Shown here: positions 15,495 through 35,557 of the stretch, in pieces
Numbering within the stretch: position 1 is the stretch's first letter
How the letters are laid out: every line of letters begins with the position of its first letter
Assembly: GCA_964469495.1 (NCBI GenBank)
Contig: CAYXYY010000011.1
Span: forward strand, 30,845 to 94,844
DNA: 64,000 nucleotides
Source: an uncultured Planctomycetia bacterium
GTDB taxonomy: Bacteria; Omnitrophota; Gorgyraeia; S143-82
Direction of reading: 5' to 3'
Program-made: the position numbers and the translations under genes
The notes under the pieces: generated by a model
What the model was told of the DNA's origin: nothing
The model's input: only the letters and a program-made list of their open reading frames with translations
The model's database searches: none

Positions 15495-15524
15495 TTTTGA
15501 CGTGGATAAAAAAGGGGGGTGTCA

Positions 15525-16516: not shown

Positions 16517-17695
16517 ATGTTTAAAGATTGGCCATTACTTATCGCCATTGCATTGGCGTTCATCGCAACCTTTTCTATTTATCAGTATATGAAGACACAA
16601 CAGGAGAAAATGCAGTACCAAATAAAAGCGGCTATAGAAAAAGAAAGACAAAAATTAGAGAATGAATATAAAAAAAATATGGCCCATGTGAAAGGGCAGA
16701 GAGGTAGAGGCATAAATGTGGTTGTCGCTAAAAAAGATATTCCAGCCGGAGATGTAATTACGTCTGAAATGGTAGAATTAAGGAAAGTTCCATCATCAGT
16801 CAAAGCGCCTATGAGCGCAGGGACGTTAGATGCGGTTATAGGAAAGATGGCAAAACAGGATATCTTGGTAGGGGAACAGGTAATGCTTAACAGGGTTATT
16901 TCTCTAAAGGCTCAAAAGGGCGCTATTATCAATCCCGGGACTAGGCTTGTCACTATACAGGTGGAACAATTGGACTTGTTTAGGTTTTTAAGGCCGGGAG
17001 ACCACGTTGATATTGCCTTGATGTTCCAATTGCCGCAGTCGCAAGCGGTAACAACAGGCCTTTTCCCAGATGTCGAAATAAAGGCCATTAATGGCAGAAT
17101 CTCGTATTCTTCGCTGTTTCGAACATCTGCGCCTGCGCAGGACAAATCCAATAGAACAATTAAAAAGAGGGTCGATAATAATGCTAAAAAAACAGGGATT
17201 AGTATAGATCCTAACAAAGGGACATTGTCTTTCTCTCTGCCGCCTAAAGAGGCAGCGATTCTCTTGATGGCATCAAAACTGGGCAAGATAGAGATATATC
17301 CAAGATCTAGTCTTGATCCGGACAAGACAAAGATACCGCCGATTACTGCGGATGCTGTTTTGCAGTTCGCCCTGCCAAATATAATGGCAAAGGCCAAGAA
17401 TAATGCTGCTGTGGCGGGCCAAAAAAAGGAACAAAAGGTTGAAAAAGAACCGGAGCATGAAGCGCCAATAACCACAAGAAAGGTCAAAATAAGAAAAGGG
17501 TCTGCGGTTCAGTGGGTAGAGATTGGCGAAGAAGGTATTATCCAGGATGAGGATAAACCAAAAAAAGAGATTTCCGGGAATGTTGATAAGCAAGGGAGAG
17601 ATGGGAAGGATGCAAAGGATATAGATGAACAGAAAACGGTTGTTGATAATAGTGAGGAGGACTTACAGAAAGAAGGTGTTGTGAATGAGGTATAA
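16517..17695 (+). CDS. cpaB: Flp/Tad pilus assembly protein CpaB (RcpC), with an N-terminal TM and a SAF domain
   Basis: An N-terminal TM helix is followed by VVVAKKDIPAGDVITSEMVELRKVP...VIGKMAKQDILVGEQVM, a SAF/CpaB pattern. It sits directly upstream of a CpaC-type secretin. Confidence 0.65.
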   Translation: MFKDWPLLIAIALAFIATFSIYQYMKTQQEKMQYQIKAAIEKERQKLENEYKKNMAHVKGQRGRGINVVVAKKDIPAGDVITSEMVELRKVPSSVKAPMSAGTLDAVIGKMAKQDILVGEQVMLNRVISLKAQKGAIINPGTRLVTIQVEQLDLFRFLRPGDHVDIALMFQLPQSQAVTTGLFPDVEIKAINGRISYSSLFRTSAPAQDKSNRTIKKRVDNNAKKTGISIDPNKGTLSFSLPPKEAAILLMASKLGKIEIYPRSSLDPDKTKIPPITADAVLQFALPNIMAKAKNNAAVAGQKKEQKVEKEPEHEAPITTRKVKIRKGSAVQWVEIGEEGIIQDEDKPKKEISGNVDKQGRDGKDAKDIDEQKTVVDNSEEDLQKEGVVNEV

Positions 17696-19244
17696 TCTGT
17701 TATTTTCCGCTTTTATATTTTTAGTGTGTTTTTCTTCTCTTTCTTCTGATGCAGAGACAAATGTATATTTAAAGGCAGGCGATACAAAGGTTTTGCCGTG
17801 TCCTTCATGTCAAGAGGTCTCTATAGATAATCCTAATATCGCAGATGTTACGACTGATGGGGATTCTGTTATTGTTAGCGCTGTCAGCCCGGGTATTACT
17901 GCATTGGAATACGTCTCTGGGAGCGGGAAAAAGGATTATAAAGTAGTTGTTTGGGAAGATAACGTTCCATTTGTGGCAAATCAGGTGAGGTCTTTGCTTA
18001 AGGTTCTAAATTTATCGAATAACATTTCCGTAGGCGAAGATAAGCTGGCAGGCAAGGTTTATCTCTTGGGAGAGATATCAGGTGAAGAAAAACAAAAGGC
18101 TTTGGATAATGTGCTTCAGGCCTGTCCTTCGCCTGTAATAGTCAATCTGGTAAAAGTTAAAGACCAGCATGAGGTTATTGAAGTAAAGGTCAATGTTGCA
18201 GAGATAAGCAAGTCCGATCTGGATCAATTGGGGATAGCTTGGCCATCTTCTATATCTCTTATAGCAAGTGAAGATGTTCCCTCTGAATCAGGCGAAGAGT
18301 CCAATGGAAAGTCATTGGGCGATGCCCTTAAATTCAATAAATGGACGCGCAATGATGCTACGTGGATGCTGTCGATGTTAGAACAACAAAGCAAGGGCAA
18401 GATTTTGGCCAGTCCATCGATATTGGCAACCAGCGGCAAAGAAGCCTCTATTTTGGTTGGAGGAGAGATCCCGATTTTGATGTATGACGATGATGAACCC
18501 AAAGTCGAGTTCAGGCCATACGGCATTATTCTAAACATATTGCCGTCTATTATAGAAGGGAATAAGATAGATGTTAATTTGGAATGCGAGGTCAGTGAAA
18601 TAGACTGGACCAATTCTGTCAATGTTACATTGGCCGGAGACGACGATGACCAAAGGTTTAATGTGCCGGCCTTTACAAAGCGGAACGCCAAAACAGAGGT
18701 GATTTTAAACAACGGAGAAAGTATTATAATGGGGGGATTGTTAAAGAACACTGATACAAAAATAACATCAGGAGTGCCTGGTTTGAGTAAACTCCCTGTT
18801 TTGGGCGCTTTATTTTCCTCTAAAGATTTTCAGAAGGGTAAGACAGAGCTTATTATTACACTAACGCCCAAGATCAAGAAAGGCAATGATTCTACTCCAG
18901 CAGAAAATCTAAATCAATTGGGAGGCCTGCAAAATATAACTCTGAATAGTGATAAATCGCCGCTGCAAAGATATAAAGAGATGCTATTGAATACGATTAC
19001 CAAATCCTTTTATTACCCGGATTACGTGAAAGACAAGAAGTTGTCGGGTACTGTTTTATTAACATTACATATTGCAAGATCGGGCAGGGTGTTGGGTGTT
19101 AGAGTCAAATCGTCTTCAGGCAGCAAGGTTCTTGACAGGCTTGCAATTATGTTAATTCGAGATATTGGTTTATTTCCTCCATTTCCCGGGGATCTAAACC
19201 TAGAGGATTTGTGGATAGATATTCCTATTATATATCAGGCATGA
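17685..19244 (+). CDS. cpaC: CpaC/RcpA-type secretin with an extra C-terminal TonB_C-like domain
   Basis: It has a signal peptide, a secretin N-domain, and the secretin core (ILASPSILATSGKEASILVGGEIP...). The last ~90 aa (YPDYVKDKKLSGTVLLTLHIARSGRVLGVRVKSSSGSKVLDRLAIMLIRDIGLFPPFP) match the TonB C-terminal domain pattern. Confidence 0.75.
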   Translation: MRYNLLFSAFIFLVCFSSLSSDAETNVYLKAGDTKVLPCPSCQEVSIDNPNIADVTTDGDSVIVSAVSPGITALEYVSGSGKKDYKVVVWEDNVPFVANQVRSLLKVLNLSNNISVGEDKLAGKVYLLGEISGEEKQKALDNVLQACPSPVIVNLVKVKDQHEVIEVKVNVAEISKSDLDQLGIAWPSSISLIASEDVPSESGEESNGKSLGDALKFNKWTRNDATWMLSMLEQQSKGKILASPSILATSGKEASILVGGEIPILMYDDDEPKVEFRPYGIILNILPSIIEGNKIDVNLECEVSEIDWTNSVNVTLAGDDDDQRFNVPAFTKRNAKTEVILNNGESIIMGGLLKNTDTKITSGVPGLSKLPVLGALFSSKDFQKGKTELIITLTPKIKKGNDSTPAENLNQLGGLQNITLNSDKSPLQRYKEMLLNTITKSFYYPDYVKDKKLSGTVLLTLHIARSGRVLGVRVKSSSGSKVLDRLAIMLIRDIGLFPPFPGDLNLEDLWIDIPIIYQA

Positions 19245-19263
19245 GCTTATTTAGGGGCGCATA

Positions 19264-21474
19264 ATGGGCAGGGCAATAGTTTTTTTTAGCCCCAAAGGCG
19301 GTGTTGGAAATACCTTTCTTGCCACAAATCTTGCTATTGCTTTGCAGCAAAGGGCATATAAGGTCTTGTTGTTGGATGCGGCTTTCCCAATTGCCGGCGA
19401 TGTGGCAAGGTTGTTAAGCATATTCCCAAAACAGAGTATTCTGGATATCTTCTTCTCCGGTTATACTATCCCTTATGACAATCCGCAAATTATGTCCGAG
19501 TTCCTTGCAGATTATGTGACAAAGCATGATGTTGGTGTGGATGTCTTGCCTGCAATAATCAGCCCCGGCGAGATGAAGCATATCAGTGATATCAATCCCA
19601 GTTTATTTATGAGGAGCATTAGTGATATTTACGATTTTGTTATTGTTGATGCAGGAAAGGTCTTTTCATCTTTTTTAGTAAAGTTGTTGGACAATGCGAA
19701 CCTGGTGTTGAGTGTGGTTGTCCCGGATATACTCTCCGTTTATCAGACGAAGGCGGCATTCGGCACTTTTCAGGATCTGTTTTTCCCAAAGGAGATGTTT
19801 AAACTTATATTGAACAGGGCGGAAAGCAAAGGCGGTGTTGGCATAGCAGAAGTGAAAACCGTTTTGCCGCTGGACATTATAGCTAAAATTCCGAGTGAAG
19901 GCAGGCCGGTAGGACATTCTGTTAATTTTGGTGTGCCTGTTCTGTTGGAAGAACCGAATTCCCGCGTAAGCAGCGCAATCAGGGCATTGGCAGAGAATCT
20001 GCTGGAGCCCCATATTTACATAGATAAACTCCCTATTGATGAGTTGAAAAACAGAAGAAAGGAATCCAAACATGATGTATTGGTGTCCTTTTGGGAGGAT
20101 TACGGATTAGGCGTAGAGAAAAAACAAGTGGAGAGGATAGACGAACTTGTTCTATTAAAAAAACGGGTACATAGGAAGTTGATTGATAGGGTGGAGACAA
20201 AGAAATTTGACTTTTTTAATATGACAAGAGACGAGAGGAATAAGATAAGGCAGGATACAGAGAGGATTATAGGAGAGCTATTAAGCGAAGAGACAGGGGC
20301 ATTGGTTGATGATTATGAAAAGAGAAAAATTTTAGTCAAAGAAATAGCTGACGAGGCTCTTGGGCTCGGGCCGTTAGAGGACCTGTTAAAGGACCCGGAT
20401 ATCACGGATATTATGGTTAACAACAAGGAACAGATTTTTGTTGAAAAATTTGGAAAGCTGCAGTTAACTGACAAGAAATTTATCTCTAACGAACATGTTA
20501 TTCAAACTATAGAACGTATTATCTCTCCTCTTGGCAGGAGAATAGACGAATCAGTGCCTATGGTAGATGCAAGGCTTCCGGACGGCAGCAGGGTGAATGC
20601 CATAATACCTCCATTGGCGTTGAACGGCCCAATGCTTACGATTAGAAAGTTTGGAAGGGAGCAATTTATTGCAGATGATTTGGTAAAATTCGGGAGTATC
20701 ACACAAGATATAGCCGAATTTTTAAAGGCGTGTATTGTAAGCAGGAAAAATATCATAGTATCAGGAGGCACCGGTTCTGGTAAGACCACAGTATTGAATG
20801 CCTTTTCGCAATATATCCCGTCAAAGGAAAGGATTGTGACGATAGAGGATGCCGCTGAACTTCGTTTAAATCAAGAACATTGGATTAGGCTGGAATCAAG
20901 GCCTCCAAACATAGAAGGCAAGGGGCAGATAACTATAAGGGATTTGTTTAGGAACACGCTTCGTATGCGGCCTGACAGGATAATTATCGGTGAGTGCCGC
21001 GGACTAGAGGCATTGGATATGCTTCAGGCAATGAACACAGGCCATGACGGGTCATTGACAACTATCCACGCAAATTCAACGCAAGATGTTATCTCTAGGC
21101 TTGATTCTATGATCTTAATGAGCGGCATAGAACTGCCTGTAAGAACGATTCGTGAGATGGTTGCTTCGGCCATAGACATCATTGTGCATACGGCAAGGTT
21201 AAGCGATGGTTCAAGAAAGGTGATACAGATTACAGAGGTAATTGGCATGTCGGATGACATGATTAACCTAAATATGAAAGATATATTTGTCTTTGTTCAA
21301 AAAGGTGTGGATGAAAAGGGCAAGATCTTGGGAGAATTTTCTGCCACAGGATATATCCCGTCTTTTTATGAAGAATTGGGCCGTATGGGAATAAAGTTGA
21401 GTGAGGGGATGTTTGAGCCAAGGCAAGTATATTATGATATTGTTAAACAAGACAAAAAGCAAGAAACTCACTGA
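19264..21474 (+). CDS. cpaF: Fusion of a CpaE/TadZ-like ParA/MinD-family domain (degenerate Walker A, KGGVGNT) to a CpaF/TadA VirB11-family secretion ATPase
   Basis: The N-terminal ~250 aa have a deviant Walker A (SPKGGVGNTFLATNLA) where N replaces the usual K. The C-terminal half has Walker A GGTGSGKTT, Asp/His boxes (DRIIIGECRG, GHDGSLTTIHANS) and the CpaF signature. Confidence 0.8.
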   Translation: MGRAIVFFSPKGGVGNTFLATNLAIALQQRAYKVLLLDAAFPIAGDVARLLSIFPKQSILDIFFSGYTIPYDNPQIMSEFLADYVTKHDVGVDVLPAIISPGEMKHISDINPSLFMRSISDIYDFVIVDAGKVFSSFLVKLLDNANLVLSVVVPDILSVYQTKAAFGTFQDLFFPKEMFKLILNRAESKGGVGIAEVKTVLPLDIIAKIPSEGRPVGHSVNFGVPVLLEEPNSRVSSAIRALAENLLEPHIYIDKLPIDELKNRRKESKHDVLVSFWEDYGLGVEKKQVERIDELVLLKKRVHRKLIDRVETKKFDFFNMTRDERNKIRQDTERIIGELLSEETGALVDDYEKRKILVKEIADEALGLGPLEDLLKDPDITDIMVNNKEQIFVEKFGKLQLTDKKFISNEHVIQTIERIISPLGRRIDESVPMVDARLPDGSRVNAIIPPLALNGPMLTIRKFGREQFIADDLVKFGSITQDIAEFLKACIVSRKNIIVSGGTGSGKTTVLNAFSQYIPSKERIVTIEDAAELRLNQEHWIRLESRPPNIEGKGQITIRDLFRNTLRMRPDRIIIGECRGLEALDMLQAMNTGHDGSLTTIHANSTQDVISRLDSMILMSGIELPVRTIREMVASAIDIIVHTARLSDGSRKVIQITEVIGMSDDMINLNMKDIFVFVQKGVDEKGKILGEFSATGYIPSFYEELGRMGIKLSEGMFEPRQVYYDIVKQDKKQETH

Positions 21475-21478
21475 GAAT

Positions 21479-21772
21479 ATGTCTGTTGCCAGGACCTTCT
21501 TTCAAAAGGCAAAAGGCCTGTTAGGTTCTCTTTCTATTGCTGATGATTATGCCCTGCTTTTTGAAGCGTGCTCTTCAGTCCATATGATAGGAATGGTCTT
21601 TGCCATAGATGTGGTGTTTTTGGACAAGGGCAAAAGGGTATTAAAGGTGGTAAAGGCGCTTAACCCTTTTAGCTTTGCATTTGGCCCGAAGAGGACATTC
21701 TATACGATAGAGGCAAAGGCCGATACATTGTCTAATCAGATAGAACCGGGAGACGTATTAGAGTGGGAATAA
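21479..21772 (+). CDS. DUF192 family protein (COG1430)
   Basis: The segment ...RTFFQKAKGLLGS...HMIGMVFAIDVVFLDKG...FYTIEAKADTL...GDVLEW follows the DUF192 pattern. An ATG at 21479 is in frame. Confidence 0.6.
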   Translation: MSVARTFFQKAKGLLGSLSIADDYALLFEACSSVHMIGMVFAIDVVFLDKGKRVLKVVKALNPFSFAFGPKRTFYTIEAKADTLSNQIEPGDVLEWE

Positions 21773-23310
21773 AGCCGGCAAAGACGTTTTTGTTTTTCTG
21801 TGTTATGTTTCAATGCGCCATGGCATATGCCGGGTGGACGCAGTTGGGGCAAAGGGTATGCTCCGGCAGCATCTCGGCCATGTGCGCTTGGCATGGCGGC
21901 CTTTTGATATCATGTGATGATTATCTATATGAAAACACGGATGATATCTGGGCAAGGCGCGCGCGTATCAGGGGGCGGTTGTATGAGCCTTCACAGATTG
22001 TGCAGAGTAAATGGGGCGTGTTTGTTGCGACCAAACAGGGCATGTTTTGGGCGCAAAACCCTTCAGAAAGATTGACGAGGATCTTTAAGCCTGAGAAAAA
22101 GGCGGTTTACTCACTGGCCATTGGCAATAAGGGCTTGTTTTGCGGCACATCCCAACATGTTTTTCTTATCAGCCCTGGTGGGGAGGTCATCTCGGAATTG
22201 TTGGCCAGCAACAGCCCTGTTTTATCTATGTTGTTTGATGAAAAAACAGCTAATCTTATCTGCATAACAGAGCAGGGCATTGTGATCTATGATGTGGATA
22301 AAAGGCGGATTATTATGCATAGGGATCTGGGCAGGAATAATGAAGATGCGCGTTGGGACCCATCTGCTCATATCATAACAATAACCCGGACGGGCAGGGT
22401 TGTTTTTGCGTATAGAAACGATTTGTATGCCATAGACATAGAAAACAACGCGCTTTCTATGGTTGTCAGCCTGCCGTCGAGCGTAATGGCTATTGCGTCT
22501 GTTAAAGGCAAGGTTATAGCGGCCTGTGAAGGAAGCGTTTTTAAGATAGATGCGCTTCTTGAGCAGGCAGATAAATATCTCGTTGGGTTAGATGCAAAGA
22601 GATTTGTTGATATGGTAAAGGAAGAAAACAGGGTCTTCTTGGCTAGTGAAGATGCTGTATTTGTGTTAGATGCTGGTGAGCTGTCTTTTAAGGCGATTGA
22701 CAAGGATATAGATTTACTATACAGATACCTGTCTTTTGAGCCGGATATTATTTTACTTCAAGAAAAGGCTATGGAATATGCAGACGTGATGCCGGATAAA
22801 ATTAGGGAATGGAGGGCACTGCTTAAAAAACGCGCCCTTTTCCCGCAGGTATCGTTTGACATTGGCGGGGATAACAATAAAAGCGTTTCGGATACAGGGT
22901 CAGTGTGTTGCAGCGGTAGTTATGCGGTTGGGCCTGATGATAAGACCGTTAGCAAGAATCTGGACTGGCAGGTGAGTTTTGAATGGGACCTTGCTGACCT
23001 TATATGGGATCCCCAACACACCTCGATCGATGCCCGCTCGAAACTTACGGCTGAGCTCAGAGATGATATCTTGGACGATTTAAATCAGACGTATTATGAA
23101 CGCAGGCGCAGGCAACTAGAACTTTTATCCAATCCCCCGAGGGAATTGGATAAGGCCATTACTATTCTGTCTAAGATAGAGAGGCTGCGCGCTGACATAG
23201 ATGCGATGACAGGCGGATTTTTGAGCAGGTTTTTAAAACAGAACGGACATTACAATTGGGAAAGAGAGTTTATAAAGGAGGTATTGAGTGAAAAAAGAGT
23301 GGGAAAATAG
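21763..23310 (+). CDS. Hypothetical secreted protein (signal peptide; likely beta-propeller-like N-terminal region and a coiled-coil C-terminal region)
   Basis: It is a long ORF with an N-terminal hydrophobic signal. I recognise no motif. Confidence 0.45.
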   Translation: MGIKPAKTFLFFCVMFQCAMAYAGWTQLGQRVCSGSISAMCAWHGGLLISCDDYLYENTDDIWARRARIRGRLYEPSQIVQSKWGVFVATKQGMFWAQNPSERLTRIFKPEKKAVYSLAIGNKGLFCGTSQHVFLISPGGEVISELLASNSPVLSMLFDEKTANLICITEQGIVIYDVDKRRIIMHRDLGRNNEDARWDPSAHIITITRTGRVVFAYRNDLYAIDIENNALSMVVSLPSSVMAIASVKGKVIAACEGSVFKIDALLEQADKYLVGLDAKRFVDMVKEENRVFLASEDAVFVLDAGELSFKAIDKDIDLLYRYLSFEPDIILLQEKAMEYADVMPDKIREWRALLKKRALFPQVSFDIGGDNNKSVSDTGSVCCSGSYAVGPDDKTVSKNLDWQVSFEWDLADLIWDPQHTSIDARSKLTAELRDDILDDLNQTYYERRRRQLELLSNPPRELDKAITILSKIERLRADIDAMTGGFLSRFLKQNGHYNWEREFIKEVLSEKRVGK

Positions 23311-23935
23311 ATTGAATAAGATCCAGTCGTATTTTGTATCAGGCCTGGCAGTGGTATTCCCCATAGCGCTTACTTTTTATGCCATAGGCTTTATCTTTAA
23401 GTTCATAGACCTGATCGTCGGCAAATACATAAATTATGTCGTAAAACTCTCTTTGGGTTTTTCTATACCGGGCCTGTCTATAGTCTTGTCTATTGCCTTG
23501 TTGATACTAATGGGAATGGGCGCGAGGTATTTGTTTGCAAAGAAGGTTTTTGGATTTTTCGAAACAGTTATGGCGCGTCTGCCCCTGATTGGTAGGATAT
23601 ACAACTCAATTAAACGGGTTTCCGGTTATATATTTGAGACAAAGAGGCCTGAAGTAAAGAGTGTTGTGCTAATAGAATATCCTAGGAAAGGGATATATGC
23701 CATTGGTTTTTTGTGCCATACAAATATAGATGAGGCAAGACTAACCGGCAGAGGGAATCGTGAGTTTATGGCAGTGTTTGTGCCGACCTCGCCGACTCCG
23801 TGGAGCGGGTTCACTGAATTTATCCCTGCTGATGAGGTTGTCCCCTTGGCCATCTCCATAGAAGATGCCCTTGAGATAATCGTATCAGGCGGCGTGATGA
23901 GCCCTGATGAGTGGCAAAAAAACAAAGAGGCCTGA
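23288..23935 (+). CDS. DUF502-family membrane protein (COG2928)
   Basis: It has two N-terminal TM helices (VSGLAVVFPIALTFYAIGFIFKFIDLIVG...) and a conserved C-terminal globular part, about 215 aa. Confidence 0.55.
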   Translation: MKKEWENRLNKIQSYFVSGLAVVFPIALTFYAIGFIFKFIDLIVGKYINYVVKLSLGFSIPGLSIVLSIALLILMGMGARYLFAKKVFGFFETVMARLPLIGRIYNSIKRVSGYIFETKRPEVKSVVLIEYPRKGIYAIGFLCHTNIDEARLTGRGNREFMAVFVPTSPTPWSGFTEFIPADEVVPLAISIEDALEIIVSGGVMSPDEWQKNKEA

Positions 23936-23956
23936 TTTTTTAAACAGGCCCCTTTT
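23929..23956. terminator. Bidirectional rho-independent terminator between convergent genes: GGCCTG-loop-CAGGCC followed by CCTTTTG
   Basis: The hairpin plus T-run was read directly. Confidence 0.5.
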
Positions 23957-23982
23957 GATAAAAGCTATATAGTTTTTATGTT

Positions 23983-26900
23983 TTAATTAATGGTCTTATG
24001 GCTGTTGAAGAAGGACTCGTCGCTTGTCGTATACCATGTCTCAAAGGATGTCAATGTAAGGTCTCCGGGGGGATAATTGTTTGAATAGTCTTGGGCGATC
24101 GTTGTATAGTTTTGATAGCCGTTGTTTATGCTTCCGACCAGGTCATGATTTGAACCAAAACCACCGCCACTGCTTCCTCTCCAGTAGTCGGACCAATGCT
24201 TTGAGGTAGTCCCCTTTACATTGGGAAACATCCCTTTTTTGGTGATAGATAATCCGTTAGCTGGTTGTGAGCCATCGTTATTGAGGCGCCATGCTATGTT
24301 CTCAACTGTGATGCCTGTTGGATATCCGTCAGGCGTTATCAAAGATGCGTATATATGCATATCCCTGTCGTTATCATCAATCATAGGCATTGAACGTTTC
24401 TTTGGCCCGTCTATTGGGCTATGAGCCTTGGCAAAGCTGTCTCTGACATAATTTATAAGGCTATCCGGGTTGGTTGTATACCCAGGATATTGTTGTGGGA
24501 AATCATTAACCACATCAAAGTCATCTGAAAGTTCACAGTATTCCTTATCTACACGCTCTTTATAAGTATCTTCTTGCTCATCATAGTAATAATCATAATA
24601 TGCCTTTACAGCTGCGTCTATGACCTGAAGTTTTTCCTGTTTTACCTCCTCGCTATCAGAGGCCTTTGGCCATATATCGTCAGCGTATTTGACGTAGTCT
24701 TCAATGCCGGAATTTTTTGCATATTCGCTCAGGTATCTAAGCATTTGCGCTTTTTGCCAGCCTTCATAAAAATAAGGGTCCGCATATGCAGGCGCGTTGG
24801 CATAGGGATTTCTATCATCATAGGCAGGCAGGTTTGCATGCTTGCCCAAGAGGTATATCTCGCTATCGCTGATGATAGATGTGGGCTGCCAGTCCTGTTC
24901 ATCCTCGGCCTTGTCCTTTTGATAGTTTATATCGCCTTGAATAAACACAGGGTTTGGCGAGACGAATGTTATGCCGCCCTCTCTGGGAATAGTTTCCGCG
25001 TTTTTGATCTTCAGCGCCCGGGAAGAGTGATAATCGTGATCTTTGCTAGTAGGTTGTTCCTTGTAATTGACCCATATAATGCCGTTTGTTTGATTTATAA
25101 GGTTGATATTATTGGCAAGTTCAGCCACATCTATTGTAATGGTATCGGCATGGTATACAGTCGGCAAGGAATTGGGCCCAGCAGATTTCACGCCCGTTAT
25201 AAAGGATTCCTGCGCTATCCATGAGGGCGGTTGTATAAACATGGGGTTACCTTCATCATAAACCTTTGTGCCTTTTACGTAAACCGTCAGGTCCCCGTCG
25301 TCTTCATATCCTATCCAGATACCTCCTTCCTTTGCCTTGGAGCTAAACGTATTTTCTATCTCTACCATAGACATGTCTTTTGCGCCGGTATTCCTTTCCC
25401 TGATTTTTCCATAGAGGTTCATAGAGTTGTTATAGATATTGTTGCTAGCCAAGCTATAATTGCCCTCCAACCAGTTTCTAAACGCTTCTGCCTGGTTGGA
25501 ATAAGACGTGTTAAGGAAATTGACGTCTTTATTGTCATCCCAATGCACAGAGCCGTAATGTTGGTCTGCCGGGTCATCTCCCCTGTAGTATCCGTACTGA
25601 GCGTATTTGCGCGGGTCGTTGTAATAGTCATGCGGCATATTGTTAGGAGCTACCTTCCCCGTCCAATAGTTTGCATCACCCCAAAACCTGCGTTCGTATT
25701 CAGGGTTAAATGTCACTGTTTCTGTATGATTGGCGTCTATAGAAAATGTGTAGTTTATATCCTCCTTTACCTTTAATGTAGCGGTCTCAGCTGATTCATC
25801 CCAAGAATATTTAATAGTTATTTCAGGGGTGGGAGGTATGCCAAGGCTGGCATCGCCTGCGGCTGTGTCTATCCCGTCAAATACCTGAGCGAATATCTGA
25901 GGCTTGCCGTCAACGATTTTTACGTCATTGTTAGGGTCTTCATCGCTATTTAATGCCTCGTTTACTTTGGGGTTAGCTGTGATGTGCCATTTATCATGAA
26001 CATCTTGGTAATAAATCCGTATGTATTTTACGGGTTTTTCTTCTTGATGCGAGTCGTTCCACCAAATATCCTTTACCCCTTCATGCGAGTAGTCTCTATA
26101 GATAAACTTGGAGTAATTTGCATCCGATCCATTTTCGTTTTTAAGCCTTACCGGCGGGGCGACAGTGATATCATCGTTGATATCCTCTGTGCCATTTGTG
26201 AATACAAACCTTGCTGTATCGTATGGATCAGGATAGTTTTGGGCAAATATCCCATATGGACTTAGTCGATCATTGTACTCTCCATACCACTCAGACGATT
26301 TATCAGAAGGATACACCCCCCCAGGGTATGGAAAGGGCTCTGTTTTTGTGCTGATAGTCAAGAAGGCATACCCGTCCAATTGTTTATTGTTATAATCATA
26401 AAGATCGCACACATCTAGATAAAATGGTTCGTATTTGCCGACAGTCCTGACTTTAAAAACGCCTTCTGAGTTTGTGCTTACTAGTTTTGGGTCCTTTATT
26501 TTTGCTGGTCCATCAAATATGATGTCGCCATTGACGTATATCTTGCCAAACCCCTGGCAGTCATATGTATAATTGCTGTTACCAGGATACCAGTTGCCGT
26601 TTATGAACTTAAAATAGTTATACAGAGAGTCTGCGTTTATGCTGACTCTGACTACCTTTGTCTTGCCGTTTAGCTCTGCCTTTGACATAATCCACCTGAT
26701 AGAGCTATCATCGTCTGTCTTGTATATGCGGACCTTTATTTGGTCATTGCCAAGCGGCCGGTAAAAACCATTAGTGTCTATATCAGCGCCTGTAATAGAA
26801 GGATTTTTGGCCTTATCCGGATTACTATTTGGCATGTGGATGAATTGTCCATTTGGATTTACTCTATGCGTAAACCAGTTAAACCCGTGCATTTTTAGCT

Positions 26901-27272: not shown

Positions 27273-27314
27273 TCATAAGTCTTGTGTTTGGAGAAAAACC
27301 TATAGGAGGTCTGT

Positions 27315-28676: not shown

Positions 28677-28690
28677 TAAAGGAGGATTCT

Positions 28691-28771
28691 ATGTCTAAGA
28701 GAAAGAGGAAAGGCAAGTTGGGCTGGAGGTCTAAAAAGGCCAATCACGGCACAAAACCAAATAAGGGATAG
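28691..28771 (+). CDS. Small highly basic 26-aa ORF (MSKRKRKGKLGWRSKKANHGTKPNKG), possibly ribosomal protein bTHX-like
   Basis: A strong SD (AAAGGAGG) lies 6 nt upstream of the ATG. An R-x-G-K-x-(x)-W-R core resembles Thx (RRGKIWRG). Confidence 0.3.
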   Translation: MSKRKRKGKLGWRSKKANHGTKPNKG

Positions 28772-28772
28772 G

Positions 28773-30374: not shown

Positions 30375-30409
30375 TGGATAATTTTTGTAAGAGATCTTGT
30401 AGCCTGTTT

Positions 30410-32111: not shown

Positions 32112-32114
32112 AAA

Positions 32115-32939
32115 TTATGTCTCTGCGCGCGACTTTACTCTGACGGTATATGTCTTGCCGTCTATTGTAAACGTTGCGGAAATGAAATCGTTTGTGTTAG
32201 CAAATGTCAGGTTTGAGACGCCGCTGGATATTACATAGGTAGTTGTCCCGATCTTTCGAACCAGTTTGTCTGCGCTTAAAAATATTTCAACCGGGCCTAT
32301 CCATTCTATTTCGCCGTCGCTGGCTATGGATTTTCTATAAAAGGATAAGTGGCTATTGCCTTCTGACAATGTAATCGTATGCGATGTGTCAGTCCCTGCC
32401 TGCCTGAATTCTTTGGATAACGTGTTAAAAATAAGCTGTCTCTGATTAGTCGTGTCCATAACAGTGCCTAACTTATTCATAATAATTTGGCCACGCAGGA
32501 AGATTACACTGACTGCCAGAAGTATTGTAATCATCATGCCCAATCCTATGAGCAGTTCTACGAGTGTCATGCCGTTTGTCTTTTGTTTTTTGTATTGCGG
32601 CAGGAGTATCATCGTAATTGTTCCCAAGAAAAGAATGGCAAAGATGACCTGCAACCAGTAAGGTATGATCATCAATTGGTGTTGTTTTTGCTTTTTGTCA
32701 GATTTGAGGTTATTTTGCGTTTGTTTTTCTGCCCTATTTTCTTTTTGTATTTTTTCTGCCCTTTCGACAAGCTCTATTTGCCTTTGTTTCATTATCTCGC
32801 GTGATTGCCTTTTTATCTCCTGCATAATCTTTTGGGCGTCTTTGATATCAGTATTTTCAGGGACAAAGGCGTTTAATTTGGCCCCGAAAAGCAGGAATGA
32901 TACGGCCAGTATGGATATAATCTTTACAGTTCTTTCCAT
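32115..32939 (-). CDS. GspJ-like pseudopilin carrying an unusual 109-aa N-terminal extension (signal peptide plus Lys/Gln-rich coiled coil). An alternative start at 32612 would give a canonical 14-aa prepilin leader.
   Basis: An internal class-III signal ...QYKKQKTNG|MTLVELLIGLGMMITILLAV has Glu5. There is no in-frame stop between the upstream extension and the pilin module. Confidence 0.5.
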   Translation of the reverse strand: MERTVKIISILAVSFLLFGAKLNAFVPENTDIKDAQKIMQEIKRQSREIMKQRQIELVERAEKIQKENRAEKQTQNNLKSDKKQKQHQLMIIPYWLQVIFAILFLGTITMILLPQYKKQKTNGMTLVELLIGLGMMITILLAVSVIFLRGQIIMNKLGTVMDTTNQRQLIFNTLSKEFRQAGTDTSHTITLSEGNSHLSFYRKSIASDGEIEWIGPVEIFLSADKLVRKIGTTTYVISSGVSNLTFANTNDFISATFTIDGKTYTVRVKSRAET

Positions 32940-34627
32940 GCAACCACCTCTGGTTCAGAAAGGTCCTTTGGCAGGTAAAAGGTATCACTGAATTGCTTTA
33001 TTCTTGGGTCGTAATTCATTGTAATGCTTCCACTGAATATGATTGCCTCGTCTCTAGAAACGATCCCTCCGTTAATCGTAAGGCTGCCGGTTCTTCCTGT
33101 AAAGGCGTGATTGGTGTACATAAATGCATCTATTCTCGTAATCTGATAATAGGGTTCTGATAGAGAGGAGAATGAATAATTATCCAAAGAACTTTCATAA
33201 TACCTTCTATTTGTTCCATCGCTTTTTTTGCCTCCATCATAATTTGTATAATTGCCGTCAAAATAGGGCAGGCCATTTTTGTAGTATTTGACATAACCGT
33301 TTGTGCTATCAGTATCATCAACAGGGTATTCCCCTGTGAAAGAAGGCTTTATATAATTCTTGACGTAATTCCAAGATGAATCCGTATAATCTCCCACGAC
33401 AACATTGCCTTTGGCCGCAAGTCCTAAAAAGTCTTTTGATTGATTCTCCTGAAGTGTCTGTTCGGGATTAGTATCCGGTTTAGGCCATACAGGTGGATCA
33501 TCGTATGTTATATTGCCCAATATGTGGACGTTTCTTCCAGCATAGATAGTGCCTTGTCCTTTTACAACGCCTTTGATTAAAACATCTCCCGTGATAACAA
33601 CAGGCCCGTTTATCTCTATAGGATTAGACGGTGTGCCAACAAGAACTATGTCGCCTTCCAATACAGCATCCACTATAACACTGCCGCCTTGTTTGATCTG
33701 CCCGCCGGCGTTTGTTACGACTGTCTTGTAATAATCCAGATCACCCAGATAGGGCATAGGAACAACCTCTTGGGCATTATATTGAGAAGATGTTCCGTCA
33801 TATCCGAACTCAAATTCATAGGTATCCAATAAACCGTTTCCATTTGTATCTTCTCCTGTGTCTAATATGCCGTTGTGGTTTAGATCTTCGCTTGGCGCTG
33901 TTGGATTGCCCGGCCGCGCAATAGACGGGGCAGTTGCAAGATAAGTTGACCAGGAGTCATATCTATTGGTACCAAGGACGTTTCCTCCTGATCCAAGAGA
34001 GGGGTTGTATGCGGCATACGCATTTCCATTTACTTTAGGGTTGTATCGAAAAGAGAAATCCCCATTGGAACGCACGTCCCCGTTTGCCGTAATAGAACTG
34101 CCCCAAAACCATCCGAAATTATTAATGAAATAGGTATAGTCAAATACCTTCGAGGCCTTTAGCCCGTATCTTATAACAGCTTGTATTGTCTTTGTCGTAG
34201 AACCGCTAGTGCCTTGAGCCTGTAATATAACATCACGTCCGTCCCCATTATCTATTCTCTGCACGTCGATTATAGATACAGTATAACTTCCAGTTGCAAG
34301 TGTGCCTGTCACAGGGAAAGAATATGGAGGAGATTCTGATAGCAGGGAATCAAACCACGAAAAAGATGAGATGCTCCATGCCCCAGTGGGGCTATAAAAA
34401 TGAGCGGAAAACAAAATCTCCAATTCCTGTTTTACCTTTTCTATCCCTGATTGAGCAGCATATATTGCCTGCAGAGATTCCTGAGATCTTAAGGTGAGTT
34501 TCGATGTGTTGTATGCCCTGATAGAGCCTGCAACCACAAGCCCTGTCAACAACAATAATATGACATAGGAGCTTATCATTATGAATCCGTTATTGTCTTG
34601 TATGTGTTTTTTGGATACCCCAAACAT
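32924..34627 (-). CDS. Large (567 aa) PilX_N/GspK-like minor pilin with a Ca-binding-like D/N/G repeat
   Basis: The N-terminus ...DNNG|FIMISSYVILLLLTGLVVAG...SQESLQAIYAAQSGIE is the PilX_N pattern. An internal DLNHNGILDTGEDTNGNGLLDTYEF resembles TSP3/EF-hand-type calcium-binding repeats. Confidence 0.6.
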   Translation of the reverse strand: MFGVSKKHIQDNNGFIMISSYVILLLLTGLVVAGSIRAYNTSKLTLRSQESLQAIYAAQSGIEKVKQELEILFSAHFYSPTGAWSISSFSWFDSLLSESPPYSFPVTGTLATGSYTVSIIDVQRIDNGDGRDVILQAQGTSGSTTKTIQAVIRYGLKASKVFDYTYFINNFGWFWGSSITANGDVRSNGDFSFRYNPKVNGNAYAAYNPSLGSGGNVLGTNRYDSWSTYLATAPSIARPGNPTAPSEDLNHNGILDTGEDTNGNGLLDTYEFEFGYDGTSSQYNAQEVVPMPYLGDLDYYKTVVTNAGGQIKQGGSVIVDAVLEGDIVLVGTPSNPIEINGPVVITGDVLIKGVVKGQGTIYAGRNVHILGNITYDDPPVWPKPDTNPEQTLQENQSKDFLGLAAKGNVVVGDYTDSSWNYVKNYIKPSFTGEYPVDDTDSTNGYVKYYKNGLPYFDGNYTNYDGGKKSDGTNRRYYESSLDNYSFSSLSEPYYQITRIDAFMYTNHAFTGRTGSLTINGGIVSRDEAIIFSGSITMNYDPRIKQFSDTFYLPKDLSEPEVVAWKEL

Positions 34628-34631
34628 TGTT

Positions 34632-35027
34632 TTAACTGCCTGCCTTTAAGAATTCAACACTCATATTAACAGGTGCACTCTTGTAATTCCACGATATTGT
34701 TGCATTTATCTTTAAAGGGTCTGCATATGCCCCGTCAGGAAAGGTTACTGATAATGACTCGTTGGGCAATGGCATTGCGAGGTTGCTTTGTGCCCACACT
34801 TGCCAGTTTGTTGAGGTTATCTCATCTGTGTTAAGCGCTTGCATCTCTTCAAGGACTATCTGGAGCTGATATATAGCTGACGCCTTTTCATTATCAAGCC
34901 CGACTAAGATGGTATTTGATATAATAGAGCCTAAAATGCCAATTAAAGCTGTTCCCAAGAAAAAGGCGGCAATCAATACCTCTAACATGCTGAATCCATT
35001 TTGCCTTTTTCCCTTTATCTGCTTCAT
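34632..35027 (-). CDS. GspI-like small pseudopilin (class III prepilin signal)
   Basis: KRQNG|FSMLEVLIAAFFLG is a canonical prepilin cleavage/methylation motif with Glu5. The protein is 131 aa. Confidence 0.6.
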   Translation of the reverse strand: MKQIKGKRQNGFSMLEVLIAAFFLGTALIGILGSIISNTILVGLDNEKASAIYQLQIVLEEMQALNTDEITSTNWQVWAQSNLAMPLPNESLSVTFPDGAYADPLKINATISWNYKSAPVNMSVEFLKAGS

Positions 35028-35113
35028 TATCCGCTCCTTAAATTCATCCTATAACGCCTTCAAAGGGCGCAAAAAAAGCGCAGGGCAAAAAATGCCCTGC
35101 GCTCAGATTCAAA

Positions 35114-35557
35114 TTATATACTTGACCAAGTTGTGCCGCAACTAGAGCCAGTATAATCTGTGCTTTCTATTGTTCCGCCTTGAGTTACCCTATAACACTT
35201 GGTACCCAAATTGCTGTTTTGTGGTGTTGCCCGAACCGTATAAGTTGTAGTTGTAGGAGTCCCAACGATGCTGATATTATATCCCGATTTTAAAATGCTG
35301 GCAGTAGTTACATTATACCTGCTTGGAAGGTATCCATTAGCGTGTAGTGTGGAGAAAAAGTTCGTTGTTGGATACTGGTCATTTGCAATGAAGTATCCTT
35401 CAGCGGCCGTTCCGATTGTCCTGATCTCTGCGAGTGCTGCCTGCTGGTTTGCTGTCCTTCTGTTTCCAAGCAAGGAAGGCAGGGATATGCCAACCAAAAC
35501 AGCTATGATCGCAACGACGATCATCATTTCAATAAGTGTAAAACCTTTGTTTTTCAT
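35114..35557 (-). CDS. gspG: Major pseudopilin GspG-type (type II secretion / T4P-like pilin)
   Basis: MKNKG|FTLIEMMIVVAIIAVL and ...ALAEIRTIGTAAEGYFIANDQYPTT match the GspG hallmark (...LDNGRYPTTEQGL...). Confidence 0.8.
   Translation of the reverse strand: MKNKGFTLIEMMIVVAIIAVLVGISLPSLLGNRRTANQQAALAEIRTIGTAAEGYFIANDQYPTTNFFSTLHANGYLPSRYNVTTASILKSGYNISIVGTPTTTTYTVRATPQNSNLGTKCYRVTQGGTIESTDYTGSSCGTTWSSI

What the first reader, a model, noticed from the sequence alone, without database searches (positions are those of the whole stretch)
16517..35557. Hybrid pilus/secretion locus with apparently missing core parts
On the plus strand, the locus holds Tad-type machinery: CpaB, a CpaC secretin and a CpaE-CpaF motor. 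There is no TadB/TadC platform, Flp pilin or TadV peptidase.

On the minus strand, it holds a GspG/GspI/GspJ/GspK-like pseudopilin set with class-III, Glu5-containing signals that a Tad system would not normally use. There is no GspE/F/D.

Either the two halves work together as a chimeric fibre system, or the partner genes lie outside the window. The mixed ancestry and proximity are notable.
Basis: inference. Interest (0 to 1): 0.6.

Follow-up and report, generated by a model that had tools for sequence, protein, structure and literature searches.

The report
Two separate pilus systems, side by side
This stretch of an uncultured Omnitrophota genome holds the outer half of a Tad-type pilus machine and, 9 kb away, a pilin operon of an ordinary type IVa pilus. 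Both are known, widespread Omnitrophota systems whose remaining parts lie outside the window, so this is most likely not a hybrid machine.

Summary
The "hybrid locus" reading is not supported.

**Plus strand.** Bases 15519-23935 form one tight 7-gene operon: a SurA-like PPIase, RcpC/CpaB, an RcpA/CpaC secretin with a C-terminal TonB_C domain, a TadZ::TadA (CpaE::CpaF) fusion ATPase, DUF192, a lineage-specific beta-propeller protein and DUF502. It is the conserved Omnitrophota Tad-like locus already described in the literature. In one other Omnitrophota genome that I could walk, the locus continues 3' with about 12 Flp-type pilins and ends in TadB and TadC, 14-16 kb past the ATPase. In the window's own sub-lineage (6 genomes, one clade in the ATPase tree) that distal half is never in cis.

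**Minus strand.** Bases 35557-32115 are a type IVa pilin operon. Its orthologue in a complete Omnitrophota genome sits inside a full PilT-PilB-PilC-PilM-PilN-PilO-PilQ cluster. In a 61-63% relative, this operon and the Tad module lie on different contigs.

**What is missing.** No platform protein, prepilin peptidase or Flp pilin occurs in about 78 kb of contiguous sequence. The closest characterised analogue is the dispersed Bdellovibrio Tad system, which has a TadZA fusion, a separate tadC and no TadV, and uses PilD. Whether this genome truly lacks TadB/C could not be tested, so a chimeric machine remains possible at about 10%.

The parts
15519..16496 (+). SurA-like periplasmic peptidyl-prolyl isomerase; first gene of the Tad-type operon
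   Evidence: Rotamase_2 E 1.5e-11 plus weak SurA_N hits. A homologue (25-62% identity) lies just upstream of RcpC in nine other Omnitrophota loci (L003-L006, L008-L010, L085, L087; next but one in L003/L004). West-Roberts 2023 names a Rotamase_2 PPIase as part of this locus.
16517..17695 (+). RcpC/CpaB, the periplasmic alignment-ring protein
   Evidence: TIGR03177 pilus_cpaB 98.6 bits (cutoff 71); SAF and RcpC Pfam domains.
17685..19244 (+). RcpA/CpaC-type secretin with a C-terminal TonB_C domain (residues 442-517)
   Evidence: Secretin E 1.5e-42, T2SS-T3SS_pil_N and TonB_C E 2e-10. Best solved matches are 8jvb and RcpA 8odn, ahead of GspD and PilQ. The TonB_C fusion is conserved in relatives.
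19264..21474 (+). TadZ::TadA (CpaE::CpaF) fusion motor ATPase (TadZA)
   Evidence: CbiA/AAA_31/ParA at residues 1-260 and T2SSE at 366-645. CpaF 8rjf matches at 404 bits over residues 330-710. The Walker A, Asp-box, Walker B and His-box residues of the CpaF part fall in invariant alignment columns. The TadZ motif is KGGVGNT.
21401..21772 (+). DUF192 protein, a recurrent accessory gene of Tad loci
   Evidence: PF02643 E 3.5e-15. It lies 3' of the ATPase in all Omnitrophota loci that extend that far (immediately so in most; after inserted genes in L007/L009), and near TadB/C in several other phyla. The gene called in L001 is 112 aa, so the true start is probably near 21434.
21763..23310 (+). Exported or anchored beta-propeller protein with a conserved C-terminal helical domain; function unknown
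   Evidence: No Pfam or NCBIfam hit. Only 7 homologues exist among 5.8 billion proteins; at least four lie on the same contigs as sub-lineage ATPases, judged by matching contig lengths. The AF2 model (pLDDT 71) shows an N-terminal helix, a roughly 7-bladed propeller (25-303) and a helical C-terminus. Fold search returns only generic WD40-type propellers.
23288..23935 (+). DUF502 membrane protein; last gene of the operon (23-bp overlap with the previous gene)
   Evidence: PF04367 E 8e-27. It follows the propeller gene in all 6 sub-lineage genomes.
23983..27096 (-). 1037-aa PilX_N-type pilin-like protein (KG|MALIL, no Glu5), convergent on the operon
   Evidence: Its N-terminus is 33% identical over 72 aa to that of the 566-aa PilX-like protein of L093. 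The C-terminal 430 aa are 49% identical to the gene at the same position in L087. No family hit.
35114..35557 (-). Type IVa-type major pilin (prepilin MKNKG|FTLIEMM)
   Evidence: N_methyl E 3e-9, ComP_DUS E 2e-6, TIGR02532 above cutoff, GspG, PilA and ComGC hits below cutoff. It is 59% identical to the L093 pilin that heads the pilin-PilM-PilN-PilO operon.
34632..35027 (-). Minor pilin (RQNG|FSMLE), GspI/PilV-like
   Evidence: Weak N_methyl and XpsI hits. It is 31% identical to the syntenic 165-aa N_methyl protein of L093.
32924..34627 (-). 567-aa PilX_N-type minor pilin or tip protein (NNG|FIMIS, no Glu5)
   Evidence: 602 homologues at E<=1e-5; the 120 best listed are 41-75% identical, and most of those that carry a name are from Omnitrophota, several named as PilX N-terminal domain proteins. 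Its orthologue in CP070837.1 lies inside a full PilT-PilB-PilC-PilM-PilN-PilO-PilQ cluster.
32115..32939 (-). 274-aa minor pilin with a ~120-aa N-terminal extension (signal-like segment, charged region, TM helix) before the class III motif KTNG|MTLVELL
   Evidence: Sequence. The syntenic 292-aa L093 protein aligns over full length (E 4e-18), has the same layout (…KRAG|FSFVELM) and a weak N_methyl hit.
38428..39626 (-). Two single-TM proteins with weak PilN (39033-39626) and PilO (38428-39036) similarity; assignment tentative
   Evidence: PilN E 8e-4 and PilO E 8e-3, both below Pfam cutoffs. No BLAST or hhalign similarity to the PilN/PilO of L093 or L094, and the PilM-binding INLLP motif is absent. 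No PilM or PilQ is nearby.
60374..62002 (+). PilJ-type methyl-accepting chemoreceptor (type IV pilus chemosensory pathway)
   Evidence: PilJ N-terminal domain E 1.9e-12, HAMP, and MCPsignal E 1.3e-43.

Best explanation
The window carries pieces of two different, individually well-known type IV filament systems of Omnitrophota. They are neighbours in this genome rather than parts of one machine.

**(1) Tad-type module, 15519-23935.** This is the envelope-spanning core module of the phylum's Tad-type (type IVc) pilus machine.
- A TadZA hexameric motor sits at the cytoplasmic face of the inner membrane.
- An RcpC/CpaB ring spans the periplasm.
- An RcpA/CpaC secretin forms the outer-membrane pore. 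Its extra TonB_C domain probably anchors it in the periplasm.
- A SurA-like PPIase probably chaperones the exported parts.

In other Omnitrophota the same operon runs on into an array of Flp-type pilins and TadG-like pseudopilins; in the one relative I could walk further it then ends in the TadB/TadC inner-membrane platform. In the window's sub-lineage that distal half has been separated from the module. The module has instead acquired a beta-propeller protein and DUF502. The motor must still dock on a platform and polymerise pilins that are encoded elsewhere. This matches the genetically dispersed Tad machine of Bdellovibrio bacteriovorus, which also has a TadZA fusion, a separately encoded TadC and no TadV, and whose Flp prepilin is cleaved by the type IVa peptidase PilD.

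**(2) Pilin operon, 35557-32115.** This is the pilin operon of a type IVa pilus: a major pilin, two minor pilins and a PilX-type tip protein. Its motor (PilB/PilT), platform (PilC), peptidase (PilD), PilM and secretin (PilQ) are also encoded elsewhere.

**Shown:** domain identities, operon structure, orthology and synteny in relatives, and absence of platform, peptidase and Flp genes from ~78 kb.

**Inferred:** that TadB/C, Flp, PilB/C/D/Q exist elsewhere in this genome; the roles of the TonB_C domain, the PPIase and the propeller protein; and that the only likely shared component is a prepilin peptidase.
For: **The plus-strand module is a Tad-type module.**
- Family and structure matches identify RcpC, an RcpA-type secretin and a CpaF-type ATPase with an N-terminal TadZ-like domain.
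- The fusion has thousands of full-length relatives; the ~110 single-fusion proteins among the 120 best listed are 54-79% identical, and nearly all of those that carry a name are from Omnitrophota.
- The order PPIase-RcpC-secretin::TonB_C-TadZA-DUF192 recurs, in whole or in the part each contig covers, in every Omnitrophota locus fetched with the ATPase query, about a dozen distinct genomes (L001-L010, L085-L088, L097, L098).

**The canonical Omnitrophota locus does contain pilins and a platform, but distally.**
- L003, L005, L006, L007 and L009 carry arrays of G|QSTLEY-type Flp pilins after DUF192.
- Walking the L003 contig (L092) found TadB (E 1.8e-63) and TadC (E 1.3e-57) 14-16 kb 3' of the ATPase.
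- West-Roberts 2023 describes the same locus (gspD, gspE, gspF, rcpC, a Rotamase_2 PPIase and small class III genes) as conserved across the phylum. Seymour 2023 reports Tad and type IVa pili as separate, common Omnitrophota systems.

**The window's version is a derived sub-lineage form.**
- Six genomes form one clade nested in the Omnitrophota ATPase clade.
- All six have the 7-gene module, with no T2SSF, Flp or TadV genes found in the stretches scanned (up to 10 kb each side; L098 by its precomputed Pfam table only), although their flanks differ.
- In about 60 loci from other phyla, TadB/C lie immediately 3' of the ATPase. The HMM is therefore sensitive, and the absence in the window is real.

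**The minus-strand genes belong to a type IVa pilus.**
- The operon is syntenic with L093, which reads pilin, minor pilin, PilX-like, 292-aa protein, PilM, PilN, PilO.
- The PilX-like orthologue in the complete genome CP070837.1 lies in a full type IVa pilus cluster with its own PilB, PilC and PilQ.
- A PilJ-type receptor is also present in the window.

**The juxtaposition is not conserved**.

**Precedent.** Bdellovibrio provides a dispersed Tad machine with a TadZA fusion and no TadV.
Against: - The rest of this genome, and of its five sub-lineage relatives, could not be searched. The existence of TadB/C, Flp pilins, PilC, PilD and PilQ elsewhere is inferred, not shown.
- Seymour 2023 notes Omnitrophota families in which TXSScan finds no Tad complex. 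This sub-lineage could be one of them.
- In four of the six sub-lineage genomes, an N-terminally short PilB/GspE-type ATPase lies four genes 3' of TadZA on the same strand. In the window and L087, a PilX_N-type gene abuts the module. Some physical association between type IVa parts and the Tad module therefore recurs.
- In L093 the pilMNO genes are not followed by pilQ. A dedicated type IVa secretin is thus unproven for this sub-lineage.
Confidence: 0.7

Rival explanations
1. This is a true chimeric machine. In this sub-lineage the Tad-type outer module (RcpC, RcpA::TonB_C and TadZA) has lost its own Flp pilins and TadB/C. It now works with type IVa-type pilins, a PilC-type platform and possibly the nearby PilB-like ATPase, and it serves as the only secretin conduit.
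For: - No Flp, TadB/C or TadV was found in the stretches scanned around the module (up to 10 kb each side) in six genomes, nor in ~78 kb around the window.
- The only pilins in the window are the GFxxxE type.
- A PilX_N-type gene abuts the module in the window and in L087.
- A PilB/GspE-type ATPase lies four genes downstream of TadZA in L002, L085, L097 and L098.
- The pilMNO genes in L093 and the PilN/O-like genes in the window are not followed by a pilQ.
- Cross-use of a component between Tad and type IVa systems has a precedent: PilD processes Flp in Bdellovibrio.
Against: - The pilin operon and the module are on different contigs in a close relative. In the window, PGI, NadE and bioF-like genes separate them.
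- Orthologues of both halves belong to separate, complete systems elsewhere in the phylum.
- To my knowledge, no CpaF-type motor has been shown to work with a PilC-type platform or type IVa pilins.
- Absence from 20-78 kb of sequence says little about genomes that may exceed 1 Mb (the one complete Omnitrophota genome fetched, CP070837.1, is 1.55 Mb), and gene dispersal is documented for the TadZA-type system of Bdellovibrio.
Confidence: 0.1
2. The 7-gene module is no longer a pilus machine. After losing its pilin and platform half, it was either repurposed (for example as a secretin plus ATPase export or uptake device working with the new beta-propeller and DUF502 proteins) or is a decaying remnant.
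For: - The distal half is absent in cis in all six sub-lineage genomes. Two new genes (the propeller protein, whose family has only 7 members, and DUF502) were recruited into the operon.
- The canonical P-loop lysine of the TadZ domain is replaced in the sub-lineage (KGGVG[N/T/V]).
Against: - Decay is unlikely. All seven ORFs are intact, tightly packed or overlapping, and conserved across six genomes with different flanks.
- The CpaF part keeps its catalytic motifs in invariant alignment columns and is 60-79% identical to its sub-lineage relatives.
- The TadZ motif still fits the published TadZ consensus K/RGGXGXS/T.
- No platform-independent function of a CpaF-type ATPase is known (my own knowledge).
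Confidence: 0.12
3. This is an assembly artefact, in which a chimeric MAG contig joins fragments from two organisms.
For: The window comes from a metagenome assembly. GC content varies between 0.35 and 0.46 along it.
Against: - Independent assemblies of the same sample or organism (Logan SRR8542060, ENA ERZ27262694, JGI 3300028908) reproduce the module with the start of the neighbouring 1037-aa gene (window ~15.4-24.4 kb) and both window ends with identical gene order; the stretch from ~24.4 to ~53 kb, pilin operon included, was not re-checked.
- GC skew is uniform across the region.
- The 79% relative L087 has the same junction between the module and the 1037-aa gene.
Confidence: 0.02

Closest known systems
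Conserved Omnitrophota 'type II secretion-like'/Tad locus (West-Roberts et al. 2023, bioRxiv 10.1101/2023.11.21.568195; Seymour et al. 2023, PMC10066038; V. archaeovorus LiM CP019384.1:12382-29832)
   Same: The proximal genes and their order match: Rotamase_2 PPIase, rcpC, secretin (called 'gspD') and ATPase (called 'gspE'). The ATPase is orthologous: about 55% identical over its full length and in one clade.
   Different: Here and in five related genomes, the small class III (Flp) genes, the TadG-like genes and the platform genes (called 'gspF', i.e. TadB/C) are not in cis, and no giant gene follows. A beta-propeller gene and DUF502 take the place of the HTH-containing gene and the pilin array.
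Bdellovibrio bacteriovorus Tad nanomachine (bioRxiv 10.64898/2026.07.08.737194)
   Same: It has a TadZ::TadA fusion motor. Its tad genes are dispersed over several loci, with TadC encoded away from the main cluster. It has no TadV in its tad loci, and it coexists with a separate type IVa pilus.
   Different: In Bdellovibrio-type loci, TadB still follows TadZA directly (L015, L038), and Flp genes are in the main locus. Here neither is present. In my rough neighbour-joining tree the Omnitrophota and Bdellovibrionales fusions are not sister groups. The secretin::TonB_C fusion and the PPIase were not mentioned in the parts of that paper I read.
Canonical Tad/Cpa system (Caulobacter CpaA-F, Aggregatibacter TadZABC-RcpABC)
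   Same: It has a CpaF-type ATPase (404 bits to 8rjf), CpaE/TadZ-type, CpaB/RcpC-type and CpaC/RcpA-type proteins, all in the usual order.
   Different: TadZ and TadA are fused here. TadB/C do not follow the ATPase, whereas they do in about 60 of the comparison loci. The window has no Flp, TadV or TadE/F/G genes.
Omnitrophota type IVa pilus cluster (e.g. CP070837.1, locus L094)
   Same: Orthologous PilX_N-type protein (44% identical); the major pilin shares only its N-terminal ~58 residues (43%), and L094's minor pilins gave no significant BLAST match. All carry GFxxxE-type class III signals.
   Different: In L094 the pilins are embedded between PilB/PilC/PilM and PilN/O/P/Q. In the window they stand alone and appear co-transcribed with a bioF-like gene. 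PilM, PilB, PilC, PilD and PilQ are not in the window.

Membership tests
Tad / type IVc pilus system | CpaF/TadA-type motor ATPase | tested here: met
   Residues 330-710 match CpaF 8rjf at 404 bits (E 8e-120), far above GspE-like, FlaI and VirB11. The best NCBIfam hit is the TadA-family model.
Tad / type IVc pilus system | TadZ/CpaE ParA/MinD-like protein | tested here: met
   The N-terminal 260 residues hit CbiA, AAA_31, ParA and MinD. The motif KGGVGNT fits the TadZ consensus K/RGGXGXS/T. The domain is fused to TadA, as in Bdellovibrio.
Tad / type IVc pilus system | RcpA/CpaC secretin and RcpC/CpaB | tested here: met
   CpaB TIGR03177 is above its cutoff. The secretin Pfam domain is present, with RcpA-type best solved matches.
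Tad / type IVc pilus system | TadB and TadC inner-membrane platform (T2SSF family) | tested here: not met
   There is no T2SSF hit by Pfam, nor by a 124-member TadB/C HMM at E<=10, in the window, in L090/L095 or in the sub-lineage loci L002, L085-L088 and L097; L098 by its precomputed Pfam table only. Both genes are present at the distal end of the orthologous locus in L092. The rest of the genome is not testable with these tools.
Tad / type IVc pilus system | Flp-type pilin (G/XXXXEY) and TadE/F/G pseudopilins | tested here: not met
   A regex search and an Flp HMM find none in the window or the sub-lineage loci L002, L085, L087 and L097 (L098 not scanned). The positive control L092 gives 15 hits.
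Tad / type IVc pilus system | TadV/CpaA prepilin peptidase | tested here: not met
   A TadV HMM (36 members) and the Pfam scans give no hit in the window or in any Omnitrophota locus fetched. TadV is also absent from the Bdellovibrio tad loci.
Type IVa pilus | Major pilin and minor pilins with a GFxxxE N-methylation-type class III signal | tested here: met
   N_methyl E 3e-9 and TIGR02532 above cutoff for 35114-35557. Class III motifs are present in 34632-35027 and 32115-32939, and a PilX_N-type N-terminus in 32924-34627.
Type IVa pilus | Orthologues embedded in a complete PilB/PilC/PilM/PilN/PilO/PilQ cluster in related genomes | tested here: met
   L094 (CP070837.1) has the full cluster. L093 has the pilins followed by PilM, PilN and PilO.
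Type IVa pilus | PilB/PilT ATPases, PilC platform, PilD peptidase, PilM and PilQ secretin in this genome | tested here: not met
   None is in the window or in the 14 kb of extra flank. The PilN/PilO-like pair at 38428-39626 is only weakly supported. The rest of the genome is not testable here.
Type II secretion system | GspD/E/F/C/L/M core plus GspG-K pseudopilins | tested here: not met
   The GspG and XpsI hits are below curated cutoffs. The ATPase is CpaF-type, not GspE-type. No GspF, GspC, GspL or GspM is present. Orthologues of the pilins lie in a pilus cluster with PilM/N/O/Q.
Omnitrophota giant-gene-associated secretion locus (West-Roberts 2023) | PPIase-rcpC-gspD-gspE followed by small class III genes, gspF and a giant ORF | tested here: inconclusive
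   The proximal four genes are present and orthologous. The class III array, gspF and the giant ORF are absent from the window. The largest ORFs are 1509 and 1142 aa, and both have unrelated functions.

The most novel reading that the evidence does not exclude
In this Omnitrophota sub-lineage, the Tad-type outer module (RcpC, secretin::TonB_C, TadZA motor, plus a new beta-propeller protein and DUF502) has permanently lost its own Flp pilins and TadB/C platform. It now operates with type IVa-type pilins, platform and peptidase. That would be a natural chimera between two branches of the type IV filament superfamily.
Probability: 0.1. Interest if true: 0.75.

Novelty: new member of a known kind. 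Interest (0 to 1): 0.3.

Why it matters
**As it stands, the finding is largely ordinary.** Both systems are already reported as common in Omnitrophota, where they are linked to a predatory or parasitic lifestyle.

**Two points have modest value.**
- A monophyletic sub-lineage keeps only the proximal seven-gene Tad module in cis. This adds to the emerging picture, so far drawn from Bdellovibrio, that TadZA-type predator Tad machines can be genetically dispersed.
- The module has conserved but unexplained additions: a TonB_C domain on the secretin, a SurA-like PPIase, and a lineage-restricted propeller protein.

**If whole-genome searches showed no TadB/C, Flp or PilQ,** the locus would become a rare natural test of how interchangeable motors, platforms, pilins and secretins are across type IV filament families.

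Tried and rejected
**Looking for a divergent platform protein next to the ATPase.**
- I suspected that the 515-aa gene after DUF192, or the large membrane proteins next to the ATPase in L005 and L007, might be divergent fused TadB/C.
- Pfam shows TPR repeats or nothing. The 515-aa protein models as a beta-propeller with a single N-terminal helix. I rejected the idea.

**Apparent CpaE::CpaF fusions in many phyla.**
- The tblastn matches suggested a widespread fusion.
- ORF inspection showed that most are adjacent separate genes. True fusions occur only in Omnitrophota, two Bdellovibrionales genomes and one 'Deltaproteobacteria' MAG.

**Reaching the rest of the source contig.**
- The 97-kb contig itself was not returned.
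- Other assemblies gave only 8 kb more upstream and about 6 kb more downstream, with no pilus genes.

**Finding the genome or its relatives in the literature.**
- Searching the supplements of Seymour 2023 by accession gave no match.
- Cluster look-ups gave no accessions or names.

**Confirming the PilN/PilO-like pair.**
- BLAST and single-sequence hhalign against L093 and L094 PilN/O gave no signal. The assignment stays tentative.

**Other dead ends.**
- The afdb50 fold library was unavailable.
- I considered reading the lost P-loop lysine in the TadZ domain as a sign of decay. I rejected this because the published TadZ consensus allows any residue at that position.

Full report
**What is in the sequence**

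The window is a chromosomal piece of an uncultured Omnitrophota bacterium. The ParA-like::T2SSE fusion protein at 19264-21474 has thousands of full-length relatives. The single-fusion proteins among the 120 best listed are 54-79% identical, and nearly all of those that carry a source name are from Candidatus Omnitrophota/Omnitrophica. Around the finding lie ordinary housekeeping genes: ClpB, HrcA-GrpE-DnaK-DnaJ, PGI, NadE, PFK, DnaE and AroA.

**The plus-strand half is one operon**

Bases 15519-23935 hold seven genes separated by gaps of 21 bp or less, or overlapping.

- SurA-like PPIase (Rotamase_2).
- RcpC/CpaB. TIGR03177 scores above its curated cutoff.
- A secretin with an N-terminal T2SS-T3SS_pil_N domain and a C-terminal TonB_C domain.
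- The fusion ATPase.
- DUF192.
- A 515-aa protein with no family hit.
- DUF502.

The C-terminal two thirds of the ATPase match Caulobacter CpaF at 404 bits, against 149 bits or less for GspE-like, FlaI and VirB11. The secretin's best solved relatives are Tad-type secretins such as RcpA.

**The missing parts are really missing from the window**

- No ORF of 110 aa or more scanned in the window hits T2SSF or Peptidase_A24.
- I built a TadB/C HMM from 124 platform proteins found in the comparison loci. It finds TadB and TadC immediately 3' of the ATPase in about 60 loci from other phyla. It finds nothing in the window even at E<=10.
- A TadV HMM with 36 members also finds nothing.
- An Flp HMM built from 40 Omnitrophota Flp-like N-termini gives 15 hits in the control locus L092 and none in the window.
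- Other assemblies of the same organism add 8 kb upstream (AlaS to BirA) and about 6 kb downstream (IlvD and a 1455-aa cohesin protein). Neither holds a pilus gene.

**What the module is in other Omnitrophota**

The order PPIase-RcpC-secretin::TonB_C-TadZA-DUF192 recurs, in whole or in the part each contig covers, in every Omnitrophota locus I fetched with the ATPase query.

In L003, L005, L006, L007 and L009 it is followed by an HTH-containing protein (not seen in L007). Then come arrays of small proteins with the Flp-type signal (for example KKA|QSTLEYIIVLAAII) and larger TadE/G-like proteins.

None of these loci showed TadB/C within 10 kb. I therefore walked the 703-kb contig of L003 one step further, to L092. 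TadB (E 1.8e-63) and TadC (E 1.3e-57) lie at the far end of the pilin array, 14-16 kb 3' of the ATPase.

This matches published descriptions.
- West-Roberts et al. describe a phylum-wide locus of more than 10 subunits, with gspD, gspE, gspF, rcpC, a Rotamase_2 PPIase and small class III genes, usually upstream of giant genes.
- Seymour et al. report a complete Tad complex in V. archaeovorus. They also treat Tad and type IVa pili as separate, common Omnitrophota systems.

**The window belongs to a sub-lineage with a shortened locus**

Six genomes share a seven-gene version. They are the window, L087 (79% ATPase identity), and L085, L002, L097 and L098 (61-63%). In this version DUF192 is followed by the 515-aa protein and DUF502. 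No pilin array or platform gene was found in the up to 10 kb fetched on each side.

The flanks differ between genomes. The window has DnaK/DnaJ upstream, L087 has POR, and the other four have TrpS-RibD-ProC.

In a neighbour-joining tree of the ATPase domain, these six form one clade nested inside the Omnitrophota clade, next to the lineages that carry the pilin array. The short form is therefore derived.

The 515-aa protein has only 7 homologues among 5.8 billion proteins. At least four of them lie on the same contigs as sub-lineage ATPases, judged by matching contig lengths. Its model (pLDDT 71) shows an N-terminal helix, a roughly 7-bladed beta-propeller and a helical C-terminal domain. Fold search gives only generic propellers.

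The motor looks functional. Its Walker A, Asp-box, Walker B and His-box residues fall in invariant alignment columns.

**The minus-strand half is a type IVa pilin operon**

Bases 35557-32115 encode four proteins.

- A 147-aa pilin (KG|FTLIE; N_methyl E 3e-9).
- A 131-aa minor pilin (NG|FSMLE).
- A 567-aa PilX_N-type protein without Glu5.
- A 274-aa protein whose class III motif follows a ~120-aa leader.

The 567-aa family is conserved across Omnitrophota at 41-75% identity among the best 120 hits, and several members are annotated as PilX N-terminal domain proteins.

- In a 61% relative (L093) the same four genes are followed by PilM, PilN and PilO.
- In the complete genome CP070837.1 (L094) the orthologue lies in a full cluster: PilT, PilB, PilB, PilC, pilin, PilM, minor pilins, PilX-like, PilN, PilO, a PilP-like protein and PilQ.
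- In L099 two tandem pilin sets stand alone.

The labels GspG/I/J/K are therefore not the best ones. These are type IVa pilus pilins. In other Omnitrophota (L094) the core genes, including a dedicated secretin, lie beside the pilins.

A PilJ-type chemoreceptor at 60374-62002 fits a type IVa pilus system in this genome. The PilN- and PilO-like genes at 39626-38428 are only weakly supported.

**Is the juxtaposition meaningful?**

In the window the two halves are 9 kb apart, on opposite strands. PGI, NadE, a bioF-like gene and a 200-aa ORF lie between them.

- In sample SRR33094770 / GCA_054040295.1 the module and the pilin operon are on different contigs.
- In L002, L085, L097 and L098 no N_methyl or Flp-type pilin gene lies within 10 kb of the module (Flp HMM run on three of them).

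The proximity is therefore not conserved.

Two observations keep a link conceivable.
- A PilX_N-type 1037-aa gene abuts the module in the window and in L087.
- An N-terminally short PilB/GspE-type ATPase lies four genes 3' of TadZA in four sub-lineage genomes.

**Closest characterised analogue**

A 2026 preprint on Bdellovibrio bacteriovorus describes an atypical TadZA fusion ATPase. Its tad genes are spread over several loci, with tadC apart from the main cluster. It has no TadV, and its Flp prepilin is processed by the type IVa peptidase PilD. The "missing" parts here fit that pattern. A shared prepilin peptidase is the most plausible point of contact between the two systems.

**Verdict**

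- What is present is a Tad-type core module and a type IVa pilin operon. Both are members of known Omnitrophota systems.
- The sub-lineage-specific loss of the cis pilin and platform half, the secretin::TonB_C fusion and the new propeller gene are modest variants.
- The chimeric reading cannot be excluded without whole genomes. I put it at about 0.1.

Noticed in passing
window 51863-56392 (-), with 56379-57536 and 57461-57877: A single 1509-aa ORF joins a complete AcrB-type RND pump (PF00873, residues 5-1025, E 1e-207) to two TolC-like OEP repeats (PF02321). It is followed by an HlyD-type adaptor and a PadR regulator. An independent assembly (L089) calls the same 1509-aa gene. A fusion of an inner-membrane pump with an outer-membrane factor is unusual.
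   Followed up: partly
window 17685-19244, residues 442-517: The Tad-type secretin ends in a TonB_C domain. The fusion is conserved in Omnitrophota relatives (L001-L004, L085-L088). Its role is unknown; it might anchor the secretin in the periplasm or bind a TonB-box partner.
   Followed up: partly
window 32115-32939 (-); L093:11702-12580: This minor pilin has its class III cleavage motif only at residue ~121. A signal-like segment, a lysine/glutamate-rich stretch and a TM helix come first. The layout is conserved in a 24%-identical orthologue, so the long leader seems real.
   Followed up: partly
L085:15696-16880, and the same position in L002, L097 and L098: A 391-394-aa GspE/PilB-type ATPase lacks the usual N-terminal domains (TIGR02533 E 5e-169, matching model positions 103-486). 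It lies four genes 3' of TadZA, in the order DUF502, MscS, this gene, Fmt. It is absent from that position in the window and in L087.
   Followed up: partly
window 31002-32111 and 30410-31012 (-): A BioF/Kbl-like aminotransferase and a 200-aa protein with an alpha/beta-hydrolase-like N-terminus follow the last pilin gene, with a 3-bp gap and an 11-bp overlap. They are probably co-transcribed with the pilin operon.
   Followed up: no
window 1924-4740 (+): A 938-aa protein combines a Peptidase_M1 domain with a C-terminal Omp85-type barrel.
   Followed up: no
window 48562-49515, 49697-50719 and 51333-51764 (+): Three other features: a Macro-NUDIX fusion protein, a 340-aa protein ending in a dockerin domain, and a ParE-type toxin. 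A 1455-aa cohesin/Big_9 protein lies just past the window's 3' end (L090).
   Followed up: no
L003 against L004, about 18-20 kb: Two assemblies of the same locus are identical up to the pilin array and then differ in which pilin genes they carry (Flp-type against weak N_methyl hits). This suggests strain-level variation in the pilin array.
   Followed up: no
L092:15983-16240 and L003:7124-7399: Small GIY-YIG nuclease genes are inserted between TadB and TadC, and between the PPIase and RcpC, of one Omnitrophota Tad locus.
   Followed up: no
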